From: an uncultured delta proteobacterium
GTDB lineage: Bacteria; Desulfobacterota; Syntrophia; Syntrophales; UBA2185
Length of the DNA stretch: 64,000 nucleotides
Assembly (NCBI GenBank): GCA_963729715.1
Contig: CAVSPA010000003.1
Location: 224,001 to 288,000, forward strand
Direction of reading: 5' to 3'
The notes under the pieces were generated by a model. That model was not told the origin of the DNA and did not search any database. It was given only the letters and a program-made list of their open reading frames with translations. Numbering within the stretch: position 1 is the first letter of the stretch; each line of letters opens with the position of its first letter. A program made the position numbers and the translations under genes. Of this stretch, positions 30,383 through 57,826 are shown piece by piece.

Positions 30383-30550
30383 CGACCACGCCCCTTCTTA
30401 ATGGTTTGATAAATCAACCAGTCCACTATTGAATAGTTATCATATTTGAAGCTCGACGTCTGTGATAATTTTACTGGGCCGATGACCTCCGGCGAGAATG
30501 TTACACAGCATAATTACCGGATTCAGACCAGGGCCTACCCTCGAATTCGG

Positions 30551-30625
30551 AAGCGAGCGAATGACGAACGATACTGTTCCCTAAGAATCGAAGATTCTCC
30601 GCAGCTTACTGCGGAGAGCTTCAAT
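30551..30625. repeat. Dispersed MITE-like repeat, copy 1
   Basis: AAGCGAGCGAATG...ATCGAAGATTCTCCGCAG...GAGAGCTTyAAT, shared with 57606-57680. Confidence 0.75.
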
Positions 30626-30840
30626 ATTTTTATTGGTGCGGGAATGAGGGAGGCGTTGAGGTCGAAATGACGGGCATTGACATAAGATTAAACCGTATTA
30701 ACTGCTCAATACGCTGAGAATCTATACGACGATATTTCCATTGACAGTTGGAGAGAGAAGTTTTAAATAAGCCTGTAACATCGAACCCATGAATTCATCG
30801 ACCCGCTTGCTTTTAGGGGAAGTTTTCTTGCGAGAATGAT

Positions 30841-41114: not shown

Positions 41115-41300
41115 CTACCAAACTGCAACAAAGCCATCCGTTCGCGATTCCGTTGCACCGGCCAGTACACCTTCACTGTTTCGCCAGATAATCTGCCCCG
41201 CCTGGGCTGCAAGCGGCTGCGAAGTTGCAACCATGCCTTTCCTGGCGAAAACCATGCTTCGCCGGGACGGATAAGGATGATACAAAGGGTCATATTGCAT
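41115..41300 (-). pseudogene. ggt: Gamma-glutamyltransferase remnant (N- and C-termini fused in frame)
   Basis: YPSRRSMVFARKGMVATSQPLAAQAG (GGT N-terminus) joined directly to QIIWR...GVLAGATESRTDG (GGT C-terminus). Confidence 0.8.
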
Positions 41301-41346
41301 TTTCTTCAATCCTTTATAGAAATTTTCTATACAGGCTTCCTGAGGC

Positions 41347-42819
41347 TTATACGTATCCAAGCCACTTCCAGTATGTGGCCCCTAAGAGAAGAATGACGAG
41401 ATAGGCGATGATTGTTAAAGGAATGCCTGTCCGCATGAAATCTTTAACTTCAAATGTTTCTGTGCTGTATGCCACCATATTTTGTGGCGCATTTACCGGC
41501 AAGATAAACCCGAAGCTCACCACGTACTGTAAAATCATTGTCATGCCCCATACGTTCATGCCCGCCATCTTTACCTCCTGCAATACCGAAATCACAATCG
41601 GTATCATAGCTGACGCCAAAGCGGTGGCACTGGCAAACCCAAGGTGGATGATAATGAGGAAAGCGGCAAGGACAGCCAGAATTGTCAAGGCAGGCATGGT
41701 CTGTAAGCCAAACCAGGTGACAATCATTTTAGCCAGCCAGGCAGCGGCTTTCGTGGAAAGAAGAGCCGATCCAAGGCTTATGCCTATCCCGAACAACATC
41801 AGAGTACCCCAAGGGATTTTTGCCTGTGCTTCTTTCCATGTCATTACACCTACAACAGGCATCAGCATGATGGCCACGGCAGCGAGGGTCGTAGAGGCGG
41901 TATCGAAATTGTGGAGGACCATTTCGGTAGACCAGAAGAATAGCAGTGTAAGCGATACAGCGAACAGCTTCTTCTCGTTCAGTTTCATAGGACCAAGGTC
42001 AGCCAAGGCTTTAGCGATAGTTTCCCGGCTGCCTGGGATTTCCTCGGTGTCAGGCGGCATGACCTTCATCAAGACGTAATACAAGACCACAGACATAATC
42101 ACGGCGAAGGGAGCGGCGGCAATAAACCATTCGAACCAGGTAATCTGTTTGTTAAGAAGTTTATCAATAAAGCCGATGGCAACCATATTTTGTGCGGCTG
42201 CCGTTTTGATACCGACATTCCAAATACTATCAGCCTGGGCGGTGGCGATCATCAGGACGCCGGCAAATTTGCTCTTTTTATCCACATTAAGCGCCAGGAT
42301 AATCCCCATTACAATAGGAACCAGACAAGCGACCCTTGCGGTTGTGCTGGGAATGAAGAAACTGAGAACGAAACCCACAAAAATTACTCCAATCAGAATA
42401 CGGTTAGTCTTCGTCCCTATTTTAGACAGGATGGATAAGGCGATCCGCTTGTCGAGGCCGGTCTGCATCATCGCGGCGGCGATAAACAGCGCCCCGCCCA
42501 CTAAGGCAGTCGCGGGGTTGCTGAATCCGCCCAATGCCAGGGAGAGACCCTTGGAAGTTCCCATGACGCCCTTGGGATTGGCAACATCGGGTGATGTGCC
42601 GAGCAGGAAGACCATAATCGCCAGGATTATGGCGGCGCTGATCGGGTAGGAAACAGCCTCGGTCATCCAGATTATTATCGAAAAGATAAGCATGGCGATC
42701 ATTCTCTGACCCGCTACCGTTAGTCCTTCCGGCGTCGGCATTGCAATGATCCCCAATAACACAACAACACTGATAATAAGGCCATAGCGCTTGCTGAAGG
42801 AATCCTGTTCTGCTTTCAT
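41347..42819 (-). CDS. DASS-family dicarboxylate/anion transporter
   Basis: TGLDKRIA, FFIPSTTAR, IPWGTL, FASATA and PVNAPQN motifs; many TM helices. Confidence 0.92.
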   Translation of the reverse strand: MKAEQDSFSKRYGLIISVVVLLGIIAMPTPEGLTVAGQRMIAMLIFSIIIWMTEAVSYPISAAIILAIMVFLLGTSPDVANPKGVMGTSKGLSLALGGFSNPATALVGGALFIAAAMMQTGLDKRIALSILSKIGTKTNRILIGVIFVGFVLSFFIPSTTARVACLVPIVMGIILALNVDKKSKFAGVLMIATAQADSIWNVGIKTAAAQNMVAIGFIDKLLNKQITWFEWFIAAAPFAVIMSVVLYYVLMKVMPPDTEEIPGSRETIAKALADLGPMKLNEKKLFAVSLTLLFFWSTEMVLHNFDTASTTLAAVAIMLMPVVGVMTWKEAQAKIPWGTLMLFGIGISLGSALLSTKAAAWLAKMIVTWFGLQTMPALTILAVLAAFLIIIHLGFASATALASAMIPIVISVLQEVKMAGMNVWGMTMILQYVVSFGFILPVNAPQNMVAYSTETFEVKDFMRTGIPLTIIAYLVILLLGATYWKWLGYV

Positions 42820-42959
42820 AATTAACTCCCTCTAAAAAAGTTAATTGACCCACGGCTGATATTGTTACCATATTTTTATATAGAGTTCTGTAGTTATTTT
42901 GATTATCACAAATTGTAATCTGTACTATTTCTCTATGCGATGAGGTGAGGATAAGTAGG

Positions 42960-43379
42960 GTATGCCGTGTAAAACGTATGACTAGTCGGTTAAAGTCCGA
43001 CGGTGGGAGTTCTGTAGTTCGCCCACGTAGCTGGAGGGAAGTGTTAAGGGTAACCTGAAGCATTAAGTTCCCTGACAAAGGTTCCTATAGGGAGTCGAGC
43101 AAACCTGCGGGTCGCAGCGTGAGCGAACCTAGATGTAGCCTCAAAAATCACAATGGAGTTGTCGACCCTCTCCTACACAGGGGAAGACCGGAGCATCTAT
43201 CCTGACGAAAACCACCAGAACCGATAGATGGACTTCCGTGGTAACAGGGGTGACACGCAGGGGCAGCCAGACGAGAATGAACGCGGGAGACCCTTGTCGA
43301 TGCTGCGAGAGCGGCAACTGGTGGATATAAGGAAACGAAGTTTCACTGGGTCGGCACGGGAGTCGGAGTTGCCCATAGT
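42960..43379 (+). mobile_element. Group II intron A, 5' part only (D1, D2, start of D3)
   Basis: 5' end GTATG (GUGYG variant). EBS1 hairpin GTCGACCCT-CT-CCTAC-AC-AGGGGAAGAC pairs with upstream GTAGG. Ends at GAGTCGGA...CCCATAGT. Confidence 0.7.
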
Positions 43380-44296
43380 GTGCGCTGGGCAGCGCACTGA
43401 TCAGGAAGGTTAGAGTCCCTCTGGCACCCGGATGAGGGGTGTCATATCCAAAGGCGGGGGTAACGCCTCGCTGGACGCGGAGAACAGATAAGGAGAACCC
43501 TAAATAGGGCACGAAGCCGGAAACGGTGGAAACAGACAAGGGGATGCACCTAAGTTTGATCTCTGTCGACAGACAACCGGAGGACAGGGTGTCCATCGTG
43601 AGATGGAATCCGAAGGGTTTGCGGAGAAATACCGGGCCGTAGTCGAGGGAGCCATCCCAAGGACGAACCGGTCGGCCAAGGGTGGGGCAAGGTCGAGCCT
43701 GCACTATGGAGGCGAAGGCGTTCTCATCCACCCGCCGCACCAGGGTGTTTGCGGGCGGCATGGTAGGGAAGATCAGTGAGTGACCCCAGGAGGACTCACA
43801 TGGTTTCCGGGTGGCACCGGAATAAGTGACCCTATAAGCATAAGCGAAGTGGGAAGCGATGCCATGTGAGTAGTCGGACAACCGAATAATACCTGAAGCA
43901 CGGTGAAAGCCATGTGACCGAGGAATCGGCAGAAGAGTGATCTGGGGAAGGCGGTTGACAAGGGTGGTCGGGGCGAAACGAGAAGCGAGATAAGGAAGGA
44001 TGATGACGAGGATAAGTTCCGTCAGTGAAAAACCCATAAGTGATCATTCGAGGAGACTCGTGGACTGGATCAAACCGACCGGTGGAAGGAAGGCCCACTC
44101 ATTAGTGGACAAGGTTTACAAGATGAAGAAGAGCCGATCTTCGATCCGGTATTCGAGGAAGCCAACTTCGGGTATCGGAAGGGGAGATCATCGAAAAATG
44201 GGTCTTGTGAATCTTGTATCGCTAATACCTTCTATCACATCTGCCAGAAAGGCAACTTTTGTGAAAGCCGGATGCTGGAAAACTGCATGTCCGAAT
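43380..44296 (+). mobile_element. Group II intron B, nested in A, with an internally deleted RT and an interrupted domain V
   Basis: 5' GTGCG. EBS1 ACTATGG (43703-43709) is complementary to CCATAGT (43373-43379). D5 AAGCCGGATGC-TGGAAAACT-GCATGTCCG is cut at 44296. Confidence 0.8.
44000..44296 (+). pseudogene. ltrA: Remnant of the intron B reverse transcriptase/maturase
   Basis: Fragments KAHSLVDKVY, EPIFDPVFEEANFGYRKGRSS (44131-44196, other frame) and GLVNLVSLIPS. No YADD. Confidence 0.75.
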
Positions 44297-45100
44297 GTGT
44301 GTCCAGCGAAGGCTGGTATGTTCAGCAGGAGTTAGTCCTGCCGGGGAAAAAGACAGAAGCCCCGTAGCTTGGATAGCAGGGTGGCGGGAAACCAAGACTC
44401 TGAAGCCTATCGACAAAGCCACCGAAAGGGTGGTTGCGAGTTACCAGGCCGTAACGAGAGTGAACGCAGAGGTGGCCCCGAAAGTGTGAAGCCCCGGAAG
44501 CCGAGCCTGCATCCGTAAGGCGAAGGCAAGATGAACAGACGAAAACTGGATGATACGTTTGATTCATTCCGGCGGGGTGATAGCGACAGCATGGTAGCAA
44601 GGACAAACCAAGCAACTGGAGAAGCCCTCCTCGTCCCAGGGAGAAATCTCTGGAGCAAGGTAGATTCTATAACCGTGAACAGCGGGAAGTGGATCGAAGG
44701 CGAGAGGGTGGCGGATGGGTTCGTAAGAGCGATGAACCGGAGTAATAGCCGGGGAGCAAAGGAGCCCTGCTGTTAATGATCTTCCGACAACACTGGGAGG
44801 TAAGGGCGAAATGATGAAGGCGCCCGTTAGTTTACAGGACCTGAGGAGGAAGATGTACTTAAAGGAGAAGTCTGAAAAGGCGTGGTGATTCTGCAAGGAA
44901 CCGCTGTGGTTTCGGCTGGGACAGGTGGAATAGGGACTGATTATCAGGCCTGAAAGCGCTGCCAGACTGATAGGTCACATAAACCTTTAGGAGAAGTTAA
45001 CAGGAAAGCATAGTGCGGGAAATCCGCATGCTATGATTGACGAGGCGGGGGCTGGAAACGTACTGAAAGTGCTCAGTGACGCGCCAGTCCTCGACCCTAC
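44297..45100 (+). mobile_element. Group II intron C, complete RNA (D1-D6) with a deleted RT, inserted in D5 of B
   Basis: 5' GTGTG. D5 AAGCATAGTGCGG-GAAA-TCCGCATGCTATGATT (45006-45038). D6 GGGGCTGG...CCAGTCCTCGACCCTAC ends in AC. Confidence 0.88.
44811..44940 (+). pseudogene. ltrA: Remnant of the intron C reverse transcriptase/maturase
   Basis: MMKAPVSLQDLRRKMYLKEKSEKAW* followed directly by the C-terminal-like ARNRCGFGWDRW. Confidence 0.7.
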
Positions 45101-45146
45101 GACAAAATTCTTGCACCCGACGGATCGAAAGTCCGGTACAGCACCT

Positions 45147-45719
45147 TCAGTAGAAAAGTTCTTTGATAAGGACACGACCGGAAGGGTCGAAAAGAAAGCC
45201 CTCCATCTTCAGTAAGGCCCGTTTCATTTCGATACCGCCCTGATATCCGCCCAGTGTTCCGTCAGAGCGAATGGCACGATGGCATGGTATTATGATCGGA
45301 AACGGATTGGTAGCCAAAGCTCTGCCTACGGCGCGTGCACCATAGGCATCACCGAGATGATTGGCGATCCGATGATATGTACTCACACTGCCGCGCGGAA
45401 TTCCATGTTCAGCAAGCAAGACCCTTTGCTGAAATTTCGAGCATAGATCCAAACGAACAATATCGAGAAAGAAGTGGACGTCTTCGCCCGTCAGGAATGC
45501 TGCAATCTGGTCGGCAACAAAATCAACCTCGGCGCAGGAAGAAGGTATGAGATCGGGAAAGGATGTCTGGACAAGCTGCCTGGCCGACACTTTGGGCTTG
45601 GAAAGCAAGGCACGCCAGATTTTCGGCTGACCTCGATGTACTTGCCAAAGGACGGCTACCGAACCGAAGGGTGTCCTGCGAAGGCAGTAGGATGACGGGG
45701 TGTTTTCTGTCTTCTTCAT
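45147..45719 (-). CDS. ogt: Methylated-DNA-[protein]-cysteine S-methyltransferase
   Basis: ARAVG, NPFPIIIPCHR and LGGY motifs. Confidence 0.93.
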   Translation of the reverse strand: MKKTENTPSSYCLRRTPFGSVAVLWQVHRGQPKIWRALLSKPKVSARQLVQTSFPDLIPSSCAEVDFVADQIAAFLTGEDVHFFLDIVRLDLCSKFQQRVLLAEHGIPRGSVSTYHRIANHLGDAYGARAVGRALATNPFPIIIPCHRAIRSDGTLGGYQGGIEMKRALLKMEGFLFDPSGRVLIKELFY

Positions 45720-50005: not shown

Positions 50006-50083
50006 TGTCATTCCCGCCCCCGATAAGAACATTCGAGGGCAGGCTCCCACTGGAATCCATCCACCTCCTGTCATTCCCGCGGA
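50006..50083. repeat. Two TGTCATTCCCGC-type palindromic repeat units, the second split by the IS
   Basis: TGTCATTCCCGC at 50006 and 50069. The remainder GCAGGCAGGAATCCAG lies at 51831. Confidence 0.65.
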
Positions 50084-51830
50084 GAGACTGTGTCGTAATA
50101 GGTTAGTGACTTTGTAGCATAAGCGCTCTTTGACAAAAGAATATTAGGAACTCGTCACGATATTCAACCTGATAATATTTAAGACACCTGTCAGCACACA
50201 TTCAAATGGATATTCTGTCGGGGCAGACGCACACGCTGATTTCTCTGCTACATTGCGCTGTGGCCGTAATCATACTCAAGGCTGCCAGCTTTTCTCTCAT
50301 TACTCCAACGCCAAAGATCGTAATCATGCGTGCAACATTGAAGCAGGTTGCCAACAGTGAGGTCTCGGCTTGCACTCCATCTCGCCCGCGCAACAGAAAG
50401 GCATCGGTTTTTAGATTCCGCTTAATGTGCCCAAAAGGATGTTCCACCCTGGTTTTCCTTCTGGCGTAAATCTTCTGAGAGGCTGCCTCCTGATATTGCA
50501 CCTCCAGTTTCTGCTTTACCTCCTCACTACGCAGCCGTACAATCCTGCGCCCTCTCTTTGACTTGGTACACTGGCCGTAATGCTTGCAGTTATAACACTG
50601 CTGCTTGTCCGCTATCAGATAATTCCGTTTGCCTTTCCTTTTATTCGTGCCTTGATAACGCAACCGCTGTCCTTCAGGACAAAGGTAGCAGTCCTGCTCC
50701 TTGTCATAGGTAAAATGGCTCTTGCTGAAAGCGCCCTCTTCCTCGTGCAGCGCCTGTCGCTGAGATGGAACAATCACCTTTATCCCTTGTCCGTCAATCT
50801 TCTCAAGTTCGTCGGTGTTGGCATATCCGGCATCGGCGCAGGCTGCATCGCAGGGATTCTTAAACAGCCCGTTTGTCCGCTCAATCTGTCTGGTGAACTG
50901 ATTCATATCGCTGTTTTCGCTGACTGCCTCGGCTTGCACGATCAGCCCATGTTCATCATCCACCACACTCTGTACATTATAGCTGGCATGACTGCCATGA
51001 ACACTCCTCATGATCGCACAGTCAGGATCGGTTTGATTGACCACCTTCCGGTCATTCGCCTGAAAGGTGTCCAGCACCTCTTTAATTCTGCCTTTTAAAT
51101 CATGAGCCTTGGCAAGCTCCTTGTCCATGGCCACATAAGAGCCTGACCCTTCCTCCTGCCGGTCTACGGACTCGCAATCCTCAAGTAACTGCTCAATCCG
51201 ACAGTCTATATCGACCAAAAGCTTTTCATAATAAGCCCGGTTATGGGTCCGGTCACGTGATGCATTAGCACGGATCTTCGTACCGTCAACAAATAAGATA
51301 TTACCCGCGATCAGTTCCAGTTTGATGCATACCTGGGCACAGTGTCGTAAAACCTTTTTCAACGCTTTCTTGTTCCGGCGCCGGAACTCCGCTATCGTCT
51401 TATGGTCAGGTTTCAAACCGCCCATGAGCCAGATAAAGGCTATGTTATGGTAACACTCCCTCTCCAGCTTACGGGAACTCTTCACGCCGTACGAATAGCC
51501 ATATACAAGCAGCTTGAGCATTGACCGGGGATCGTATTCGGCATTGCCTACCTTGTACGGATTGATATTGATTCCCGGTTCATGGAAATCAACAGCTTCG
51601 ACAAAGGCGTCATAGGCCCTGACAGGATCATCCTCAGCCACATATTCTTCAATGCTCTGGGGAAGTAAACTCATCTGCTGACGATCGCCACTTCGATATG
51701 CCATGCTGTTTCTCCTTTCGGAAAAACTCTATCATATCAATGTGGCTTGTGTTACAGCTTTTTCTCCTAAACCTAATATCTTTTTGTCAAAGAGCTTGAT
51801 TATGCATTTACCTAATTACGACACAGTCTC
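50084..51830 (-). mobile_element. IS1182-family insertion sequence (1747 bp)
   Basis: 16-bp perfect terminal IR GAGACTGTGTCGTAAT, plus a subterminal GCTCTTTGACAAAA at both ends. Confidence 0.92.
50202..51704 (-). CDS. IS1182-family DDE transposase
   Basis: SSRKLE, PDHKTIAEFR, VDGTKIRANAS, TDPD, ADAGY and VEHPFG motifs. Confidence 0.95.
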   Translation of the reverse strand: MAYRSGDRQQMSLLPQSIEEYVAEDDPVRAYDAFVEAVDFHEPGININPYKVGNAEYDPRSMLKLLVYGYSYGVKSSRKLERECYHNIAFIWLMGGLKPDHKTIAEFRRRNKKALKKVLRHCAQVCIKLELIAGNILFVDGTKIRANASRDRTHNRAYYEKLLVDIDCRIEQLLEDCESVDRQEEGSGSYVAMDKELAKAHDLKGRIKEVLDTFQANDRKVVNQTDPDCAIMRSVHGSHASYNVQSVVDDEHGLIVQAEAVSENSDMNQFTRQIERTNGLFKNPCDAACADAGYANTDELEKIDGQGIKVIVPSQRQALHEEEGAFSKSHFTYDKEQDCYLCPEGQRLRYQGTNKRKGKRNYLIADKQQCYNCKHYGQCTKSKRGRRIVRLRSEEVKQKLEVQYQEAASQKIYARRKTRVEHPFGHIKRNLKTDAFLLRGRDGVQAETSLLATCFNVARMITIFGVGVMREKLAALSMITATAQCSREISVCVCPDRISI

Positions 51831-57522: not shown

Positions 57523-57565
57523 ACTACCCTCTGTATAATAAAATTACTTAAAGAAGCGATGCTCA

Positions 57566-57680
57566 GAATCCGGGAGCGAGCACATCCCGTAGCTTGCTGT
57601 GGGGTAAGCGAGCGAATGGGGAACATTGTTATTCCTTAAGGATCGAAGATTCTCCGCAGTTTACCGCAGAGAGCTTTAAT
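57566..57680. repeat. Dispersed MITE-like repeat, copy 2 (longer)
   Basis: Similar to 30551-30625, with an extra hairpin CCCGTAGCTTGCTGTGGG. Confidence 0.72.
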
Positions 57681-57826
57681 TGTTTATGGATATTTAATGT
57701 AACTCCCCGTCAGGTGCGGGAAGTATAGGAGATGAGGTCATGTAAGTCAATATAATTTGGCGGCGAAAAATTACCGGCACTACCGTGTATTCCTCGAAAG
57801 CGCAGGAAGATTTTTTGTACGCTCAT

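What the first reader, a model, noticed from the sequence alone, without database searches (positions are those of the whole stretch)
42960..45100. Three nested group II intron RNAs with no intact RT, each junction matched by EBS1-IBS1 pairing
Seen: three 5' ends (GTATG 42960, GTGCG 43380, GTGTG 44297), each followed by a 'GYCGA..CCT-loop-AGG.GAAG.C' hairpin. Each loop is complementary to the bases just before that intron: A CCTAC/GTAGG (5/5), B ACTATGG/CCATAGT (7/7), C ATCCGTA/TCCGAAT (5/7). B interrupts A at the start of domain III, and C interrupts B inside domain V. Known: group II introns retrohome by EBS-IBS pairing, and twintrons exist. Inference: three different intron lineages inserted successively, with B and C targeting conserved ribozyme sequence of other introns. 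No intact RT remains in the block.
Basis: partly seen in the sequence, partly recalled or inferred. Interest (0 to 1): 0.85.

Follow-up and report, generated by a model that had tools for sequence, protein, structure and literature searches.

The report
Introns that target other introns' cores
This is a broken stack of three self-splicing mobile introns, one inside the next, built by two intron families whose guide loops aim at conserved core parts of other introns; introns inside introns are known, but these two landing sites seem little described.

Summary
Confirmed. A (42960-43379), B (43380-44296) and C (44297-45100) are three unrelated group II introns (parent RTs 34-39% identical) with deleted ORFs and no cognate RT in the assembly. 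B belongs to a broad RT-encoding lineage that inserts at one nucleotide of domain III of other introns: 34 of 40 scanned relatives have a host domain I upstream, of four Rfam types. C belongs to a g2-like clade that inserts at the 3' base of domain V: 16 of 20 close relatives, 0 of 12 distant ones. EBS1 covaries with the 5' flank in both families; C also has a covarying EBS2. Correction: the nest is incomplete. B's domain VI and A's 3' 280 nt are missing, and C ends precisely on unrelated DNA, probably by recombination between two C copies. Contigs from two studies bridge the B|C and C|flank junctions. Nested introns are known (Methanosarcina, Thermosynechococcus, Euglena psbF in domain V). 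I found no paper on lineages homing to domain III or V, but key papers were not held. This scan noted both landing sites before on other DNA. The locus is a relic; the lineages are the interesting part.

The parts
41347..42819 (-). DASS-family sodium:sulfate/dicarboxylate symporter gene (5' neighbour, opposite strand)
   Evidence: PF00939 E 9e-113; ORF list
42953..42959 (+). IBS1 of intron A (5/7, five contiguous pairs); start of a dispersed repeat that A targets
   Evidence: empty site in G003
42960..43379 (+). Intron A, 5' part only: domains I, II and the first strand of domain III of a 698-nt ORF-less IIB-type intron family
   Evidence: RF02003 84.1 bits; 100% identical to G000:C18:44029-44448; complete 698-699 nt copies L030, L031 and ORF-bearing parent L018
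43170..43178 (+). EBS1 loop of A; inferred EBS3 (G) at 43190
43373..43379 (+). IBS1 of B, lying in the basal internal loop of A's domain III (7/7)
   Evidence: fold of the uninterrupted A domain III in L030 (structure only, z 0.05)
43380..44296 (+). Intron B, domains I-V; lacks the last 49 nt of the parent (closing pair of domain V and domain VI)
   Evidence: 92% to full-length 2029-nt parent L127
43701..43709 (+). EBS1 loop of B; inferred EBS3 (U) at 43721
44000..44251 (+). RT ORF remnant of B in three pieces, with deletions of 256 nt (at 44130/44131) and about 805 nt (near 44190-44195) relative to L127
44266..44296 (+). Domain V of B (AGC triad at 44266); its 3' strand is the IBS1/IBS2 target of C
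44297..45100 (+). Intron C, structurally complete domains I-VI, ORF deleted (g2-like)
   Evidence: RF02003 129.3 bits; 90-95% to full-length 1.94-kb parents L016 and L010
44483..44489 (+). EBS2 of C (position from family covariation)
   Evidence: window pairing read by hand: 5 of 6, three of them G-U
44509..44517 (+). EBS1 loop of C; inferred EBS3 (A) at 44529
44811..44939 (+). RT ORF remnant of C, with deletions of 1096 nt (at 44893) and 44 nt (at 44939/44940) relative to L016
45007..45100 (+). Domains V and VI of C; its own domain V pairs only 3/7 with its own EBS1
   Evidence: fold z -3.92, 0 of 200 shuffles as stable
45101..45146 (+). Foreign 3' exon: intergenic DNA whose empty allele in G004 is preceded by a 7-mer one mismatch from the commonest domain V target of the C clade
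45147..45719 (-). O6-methylguanine-DNA methyltransferase-like gene (3' neighbour, opposite strand)
   Evidence: PF01035 E 2e-29

Best explanation
The block is the truncated relic of three successive group II intron insertions. (1) An ORF-less A copy inserted at its GTAGG target (site shown by the empty allele; mobilisation in trans inferred). (2) B inserted into A's domain III. B's lineage uses EBS1 (and EBS3 = U) to recognise the conserved YRUAGU|A motif in domain III of many kinds of group II intron (shown by comparison; retrohoming itself inferred from established mechanism). (3) C inserted at the 3' base of B's domain V. C's clade uses EBS1, EBS2 and EBS3 against the 3' strand of domain V of other introns, while its own domain V stem does not match (shown by comparison). 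(4) B and C lost their ORFs by internal deletion, before or after insertion (not resolved). (5) The rest of B and A was lost, most likely by recombination between this C and a second C copy at a near-cognate intergenic site beside the methyltransferase gene (inferred). In intact nests the inner intron cuts a core domain of its host, so splicing must run inside-out (inferred). Here A and B cannot splice and C lacks a cognate RT, so the locus is probably inert.
For: A without B, with a C-family intron at the same domain V position, lies in the same genome. Intact A-with-B (L142) and A-with-C (L060) twintrons exist elsewhere. B family: 56 of 64 distinct 5' junctions match a domain III signature against a background of 0.16%; 34 of 40 scanned loci have an Rfam host domain I upstream, of four models; 57 of 60 pair 6-7 of 7 with EBS1; own-versus-swapped pairing 343 against a mean of 316, reached by 0 of 10,000 shuffles. 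C family: 16 of 20 close loci pass a strict domain V test, 0 of 12 distant ones, background 0.87%; EBS1 pairing 160 against a mean of 103.5, 0 of 10,000; EBS2 covaries, 0 of 2,000. The EBS1 hairpin and its parent helices covary: 13 of 20 pairs with changes on both sides. No RT above 44% identity to the three parents outside the remnants. Junctions B|C and C|flank are bridged with no differences by contigs of runs X1 and X2 from two studies. L040 and L043, in one genome, carry reciprocal host flanks around C copies.
Against: No splicing or mobility was measured. Kin are not independent, so the shuffle tests overstate. The domain III pattern was written after I had seen the flanks, and the 40 loci for Rfam were picked by me, mostly for long upstream flanks. 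The A|B junction is not bridged by any contig among the rows shown (451 rows not shown). C's EBS3 (A) does not match the present 3' exon (G), the G004 site pairs only 4/7 with the window's EBS1, and no reciprocal junction or second C copy with a 3' end was found, so step 5 is the weakest. Domain V targeters are not an exclusive, well supported clade: the 14-row group has 90/85 support and holds two non-domain V rows.
Confidence: 0.88

Rival explanations
1. The whole block moved or splices as one composite intron, using A's domain I and 5' splice site with C's domains V-VI (a 'zombie'-type unit).
For: The block starts at a true 5' end with IBS1 and stops exactly at a true 3' end. Composite splicing is reported in plant mitochondria (PMC7049729, passages).
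Against: The two flanks continue into different sequences in G003 and G004. The joined flanks were found nowhere in the held loci or G000 with up to 2 mismatches. A's EBS3 (G) does not pair with the 3' exon G. A's domain III is cut.
Confidence: 0.04
2. The 3' truncation came from one-ended reverse splicing or ectopic integration of a C RNA whose cDNA recombined into the resident C, with no complete second copy ever present.
For: It also gives a precise 3' end on a near-cognate site and needs no second copy, and none is in the assembly. The mechanism is recalled from work on linear intron retrohoming; I saw only a search listing for it (PMC3280974).
Against: It cannot be told from ordinary recombination by sequence. 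Reciprocal flanks in L040/L043 show that recombination between whole C copies occurs. It changes only step 5.
Confidence: 0.2
3. The junctions are assembly chimeras across repeated intron copies.
For: A is a repeat in this assembly, contamination is 6.48%, a 1.7-kb neighbour is duplicated at 99.8%, and A|B is not bridged in the rows shown.
Against: B|C is bridged by X2 record 12 (88 and 63 nt on the two sides, 0 differences), and C|flank by X1 record 8 and X2 record 15 (0 differences), from two studies, one of which could be the source. The same A|B junction nucleotide occurs in independent contigs L139 and L142.
Confidence: 0.03
4. B and C are not specialised. They fall into other introns because intron-rich non-coding DNA tolerates insertions.
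For: Some relatives sit outside introns (L017, L048, L052) and selection removes insertions in genes.
Against: Insertions fall on one nucleotide of one domain across four host types, and EBS1 variants track target variants (L132, L203, L205, L179).
Confidence: 0.02

Closest known systems
Nested group II intron arrays of Methanosarcina acetivorans (Dai & Zimmerly 2003; paper not held, seen through section 17 of PMC4424553, and its title in a reference list)
   Same: Up to five nested introns, no flanking ORF, repeated site-specific homing into other group II introns, balanced by deletion through homologous recombination.
   Different: By its title, homing is into intron ORFs of related introns. 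Here the targets are ribozyme domains III and V of unrelated intron types.
Thermosynechococcus elongatus TeI3/TeI4 twintrons (Mohr et al. 2010, PMC2882425, passages)
   Same: ORF-less deletion derivatives mobilised in trans, and an EBS family tuned to a conserved site in another intron.
   Different: The site is in domain IV between two ATGs of a sister intron. Here the site is in the core, the hosts are unrelated, and the block is truncated.
Euglena gracilis psbF twintron (Copertino & Hallick 1991; seen through PMC8393795, passages)
   Same: Inner group II intron within domain V of the outer one.
   Different: A single plastid case. No targeting lineage was described in the passage seen, and I could not compare the exact position.
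Trichodesmium Tr.e.I7/I8 twintron (PMC4649490, passages)
   Same: Bacterial twintron that interrupts a ribozyme domain and splices sequentially.
   Different: The inner intron is in domain I, and the twintron is intact and inside a gene.
ORF variety g2 (B.th.I3, W.e.I5; PMC3552965, passages and Table S2)
   Same: C parent RT is 50% identical to B.th.I3 against 29-38% for g1 and g3 references; same 5' start motif and size.
   Different: B.th.I3 sits in a transposase gene. Only a subset of this group targets domain V.

Membership tests
Group II intron (A, B, C) | 5' GUGYG-type start | tested here: met
   B and C canonical; A starts GUAUG, shared by its family
Group II intron (A, B, C) | Domain I core with an EBS1 hairpin | tested here: met
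   A and C pass Rfam RF02003. B is sub-threshold here, but four B relatives pass RF02001 over the same region (L161, L138, L173, L180). Covariation in C.
Group II intron (A, B, C) | Domain V with catalytic triad, domain VI with bulged A, AY end | tested here: inconclusive
   Met for C and for full-length relatives L030 and L127. Not met in the window for A (absent) or B (domain VI absent). C's domain V-VI did not reach an RF00029 match.
Group II intron (A, B, C) | RT/maturase ORF in domain IV | tested here: not met
   Only remnants in the window. Parents carry RVT_1 and GIIM (for L127 and L016). These are ORF-less derivatives.
Group II intron (A, B, C) | Self-splicing and retrohoming activity | not testable with these tools
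   No assay; only DNA-type runs were laid, as contigs
Subgroup IIB exon recognition | EBS1-IBS1 | tested here: met
Subgroup IIB exon recognition | EBS2-IBS2 | tested here: inconclusive
   Met for the C family (mean 4.5 of 6, 0 of 2,000 swaps). Not found for the B family (best 3.3 of 6, no covariation). Not tested for A.
Subgroup IIB exon recognition | EBS3-IBS3 | tested here: inconclusive
   Position inferred by me. B family: U with A in 41 of 51. C family: A goes with T and G with C or T in most rows. Mismatch at the window's own 3' junction.
Twintron in the original sense | Inner intron precisely inside a complete outer intron | tested here: not met
   The window lacks the 3' parts of A and B. 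Met by relatives L142, L060, L016, L127.
Twintron in the original sense | Inner intron splices first | not testable with these tools
   Inferred from the cut core domains only
ORF variety g2 (intron C) | RT groups with g2 members | tested here: inconclusive
   50% to B.th.I3, and 100/100 support for a group with it, but only one g2 reference was held and it lies on a long branch
ORF varieties g1, g2, g3 (intron B) | RT groups with a named variety | tested here: not met
   31-33% to Sr.me.I2, B.th.I3, Ni.ha.I1 and the A. caldus g3 ORF; g4-g6 and unclassified references were not held, so B stays unassigned
Class F / g3 neighbourhood (intron A) | RT groups with class F members | tested here: inconclusive
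   46% to Ni.ha.I1; no basal class F reference was held

The most novel reading that the evidence does not exclude
B and C are dedicated intron parasites of the group II ribozyme core, and domain V stems are shaped by an arms race with them. C's clade keeps a domain V that its own EBS1 cannot pair with (2-5 of 7 against mostly 5-7 for targets). The B subclade closest to this one mostly carries C-like stems that pair only 4 of 7 (7 of 10 at 76% identity or more, against 5 of 58 below with 4 or fewer), while the one close B with a canonical stem, in this window, was hit. Against: the odd stem is also in C relatives that do not target domain V, the B pattern may be one inherited change, and domain V stems vary in the A family too.
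Probability: 0.15. Interest if true: 0.8.

Novelty: new variant of a known kind. Interest (0 to 1): 0.55.

Why it matters
Published bacterial twintrons that I could read target ORFs, domain IV or domain I of related introns. Two RT-encoding lineages that home to domain III and to the domain V/VI boundary of unrelated introns would have a target supplied wherever any group II intron lands, and would make the host's splicing depend on theirs. They give ready natural substrates for testing obligatory inside-out splicing and parasite-of-parasite dynamics. They also point to a class of introns that survey pipelines drop: nested copies were excluded or missed in PMC4028801 and PMC8919778 (passages). 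The locus in this window itself is a dead relic of no likely function.

Tried and rejected
(1) Strict self-immunity of B: rejected. The window's own domain III site pairs 4/7, but L157 and L162 show B-family copies inside B-family domain III. (2) Self-avoidance of C as an adaptation: not shown, because non-targeting relatives (L048, L053, L056, L077) have the same unusual stems. (3) B's domain V being a piece of A: rejected, since A's own domain V differs, canonical stems occur in B relatives, and run X8 shows the window-type stem continuing into a B-type domain VI (table 7). That allele ends GGAU, so C's 5/7 is probably a decayed 6/7. (4) EBS2 for B: none found. (5) Folding the isolated EBS1 hairpins gave no significant z-scores (0.46, -0.73, -1.41), so the structure claim rests on covariation. 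(6) Promoter scan: 3 sites against 1.5 expected, uninformative. (7) Remainders of A or B elsewhere in G000: none apart from the C18 copy of A. (8) Class of B from PMC4244168: the one Cupriavidus necator row is a g2 ORF that I could not tie to L133. (10) Rows left out: 2 B junctions with short flanks; C loci whose 5' end was not held or not located (L050, L054, L055, L058, L061, L066, L069, L073) and duplicate loci; L061, L064 and L077 were skipped in the tree because of stops.

Full report
1. Observation. The three 5' ends, hairpins and pairings are in the sequence as described. All three hairpins carry a 9-nt loop whose last seven bases face the seven bases before the intron: A 5/7, B 7/7, C 5/7. 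Only B's match is strong alone (chance 0.00005 per position; about 0.01 for A and C). Rfam finds domain I models in A and C above the cut-off and in B below it. Both neighbours, a DASS transporter and a methyltransferase gene, are on the opposite strand.

2. Boundaries from empty alleles. G000:C18:44029 holds a copy of A, identical over 420 nt, that runs on through domain III, an ORF remnant and its own domain V. There an 86%-identical C-family intron starts at the same structural position as in the window. Complete ORF-less A copies of 698-699 nt and an ORF-bearing parent occur in relatives. In G003 the 5' flank matches up to 42959 and continues without A. Full-length parents of B (L127, 2029 nt, 438-aa RT) and C (L016, L010, about 1.94 kb, 427-aa RT) show that both window copies have two internal deletions. 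The three parent RTs are 34-39% identical to each other, and outside the remnants the assembly holds no RT closer than 44% to any of them, although it holds ten other RT matches.

3. B is a domain III-homing lineage. I examined 89 loci: 79 from metagenomes (the best 80 of 564 relatives), 3 from 339 genomes of the class and 7 of 8 plasmid hits. Of 64 distinct 5' junctions with at least 24 nt of flank, 56 match a domain III signature, against a background of 0.16%; I wrote that pattern after seeing the flanks. Independently, 34 of 40 loci that I picked for Rfam have a host domain I upstream of B, from four models: D1D4-6 13, D1D4-4 10, D1D4-3 6, D1D4-2 5. EBS1 pairs 6-7 of 7 in 57 of 60, and variant loops go with variant targets (343 Watson-Crick pairs against a shuffled mean of 316; 0 of 10,000). 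The 3' exon starts with A in 48 of 51. No EBS2 was found. Named carriers include Burkholderiales, Hyphomicrobiales and Alicyclobacillus. L142 is an intact B inside an ORF-less A-family intron at the same nucleotide as here. Self-insertion occurs (L157, L162).

4. C is a domain V-homing clade. Among 20 close loci (76% amino-acid identity or more, or 86% nucleotide), 16 pass a strict test for a domain V ending at the junction. L010 and L040 fail it but are followed by a domain VI, and L017 and L048 are not in introns. Among 12 distant loci none passes; the background is 0.87%. Some rows share a genome or a flank, so they are not independent. The cut lies right after the base that pairs with the first triad A, whatever the loop length, so one closing pair and domain VI fall on the far side. 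EBS1 tracks the flank across both groups (160 against 103.5; 0 of 10,000), a second loop behaves as EBS2 (0 of 2,000), and the helices around EBS1 covary. The clade's own domain V pairs only 2-5 of 7 with its EBS1, but this stem type is also in non-targeting relatives. On the RT tree the targeters fall mostly in one group with moderate support (90/85) that also holds two non-targeters, and the L052/L064 element lies outside it. C's RT is closest to the g2 reference B.th.I3 (50%), A's to Ni.ha.I1 (46%), and B's to none of the four references held.

5. The nest is broken on the right. After C should come 49 nt of B and about 280 nt of A. Instead the sequence matches G004 from exactly 45101, and neither remainder is elsewhere in G000 apart from the C18 copy of A. 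The seven bases before the G004 site are one mismatch from the commonest domain V target; 0.66% of window positions are that close to any seen target. Against this, the site pairs only 4/7 with the window's EBS1, and EBS3 mismatches. The simplest reading is a second C at this site followed by recombination between the two copies. L040 and L043 in one genome show such swapped flanks, and the review PMC4424553 describes the same balance in Methanosarcina (section 17 passage). The 1.5 kb upstream of the G004 site has no match in G000, which fits a deletion but may be a species difference.

6. Reads. No run holds half of the stretch's words. Four DNA-type runs were laid as contigs. B|C is bridged by X2 record 12, C|flank by X1 record 8 and X2 record 15, and B's first deletion by X2 record 11, all without differences; X1 and X2 are from two studies and one may be the source. 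Flank|A is crossed by only 17 nt and A|B is not bridged in the rows shown. X1 also has a contig in which C's 3' end runs into a sequence equal to the domain V/VI remainder of the uninterrupted intron at G000:C4:704220-704295, and one in which C runs on into its RT ORF, so full-length C and further filled sites exist in that community.

7. Mechanism. Shown: anatomy, target positions, EBS-IBS covariation, ORF deletions, missing halves. From established knowledge: reverse splicing guided by EBS-IBS pairing, and trans-mobilisation of ORF-less copies (PMC2882425, passages). Inferred: order A, B, C; inside-out splicing in intact nests; recombination as the cause of the truncation; present inactivity. 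The identity of the two A copies suggests that B arrived recently, or that the copies were homogenised.

8. What is known. Nested introns and introns tuned to other introns are known: Methanosarcina (ORFs), Thermosynechococcus (domain IV), Porphyridium (domain IV; PMC4476101 passages), Trichodesmium (domain I) and Euglena psbF (domain V, one case). Eight searches and passages of twelve papers (with supplements in 59 and 84) gave no description of lineages homing to domain III or to the base of domain V. Simon et al. 2008 and Dai & Zimmerly 2003 are not held, and Michel et al. 2007, Leclercq et al. 2011 and the Calgary database pages were not seen, so prior description cannot be excluded. Earlier notes of this scan report a domain III invader, domain V/VI invaders, the C18 copy and another triple nest; they are unchecked AI notes, seen after I had formed my reading, and are not counted as support. 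Domain and pairing labels (d3 hairpin, EBS3 position, IIB) follow recalled conventions, except where covariation is cited.

9. Verdict. The locus is a decayed relic. The two targeting lineages are a well supported variant of a known behaviour, with landing sites I could not find in print. Novelty: new variant of a known kind. Interest 0.55.

Noticed in passing
window 41195-42912 and G000:C5:427401-429118: The DASS transporter gene is duplicated at 99.8% over 1718 nt; the copies part 47 nt before intron A. Most genus relatives match the C5-type flank and G003 the window type. Recent duplication or strain mixture.
   Followed up: partly
L011:2155-2225 and 16 BLAST matches in G000: A's empty site is the start of a dispersed repeat of about 60 nt that begins GTAGG in several copies. 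Its nature (cassette end, REP-like or other) is unexplained.
   Followed up: partly
G000:C18:16851-16961, C7:199271-199376, C18:27268-27349, C13:10393-10474: Four 5' stubs of A or a relative, 88-112 nt long; the first two stop at nearly the same point.
   Followed up: no
G000:C1:21519-22140: A roughly 620-nt ORF-less relative of the RT-bearing intron family at C3:370k and C5:28k.
   Followed up: no
G000:C4:224825-228564: Two complete introns of different families lie 19 nt apart in tandem; the second has a split RT match.
   Followed up: no
L052, L223, L241: Distant C relatives, including B.th.I3, sit in what look like IS4-type transposase genes near a W-x-x-E motif (reading frame and family recalled, not tested), a possible older target of the g2 group.
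   Followed up: no
L183:77, L160:1513-1601: A B-family copy directly follows the 3' end of another B copy, and another has a duplicated domain V-VI; odd tandem products.
   Followed up: no
L127, L138, L119 and the window: Four B elements that are 89% or more alike in RT or 91% or more in RNA carry four different, fully or nearly compensated domain V stems.
   Followed up: partly
window 50063-51830: DDE transposase element (PF13751, PF05598) with diverged copies on C5 and C6.
   Followed up: no
window 30540-30630 and 57563-57687: Two members of a dispersed 75-120 nt repeat family with about 15-20 copies in G000.
   Followed up: no
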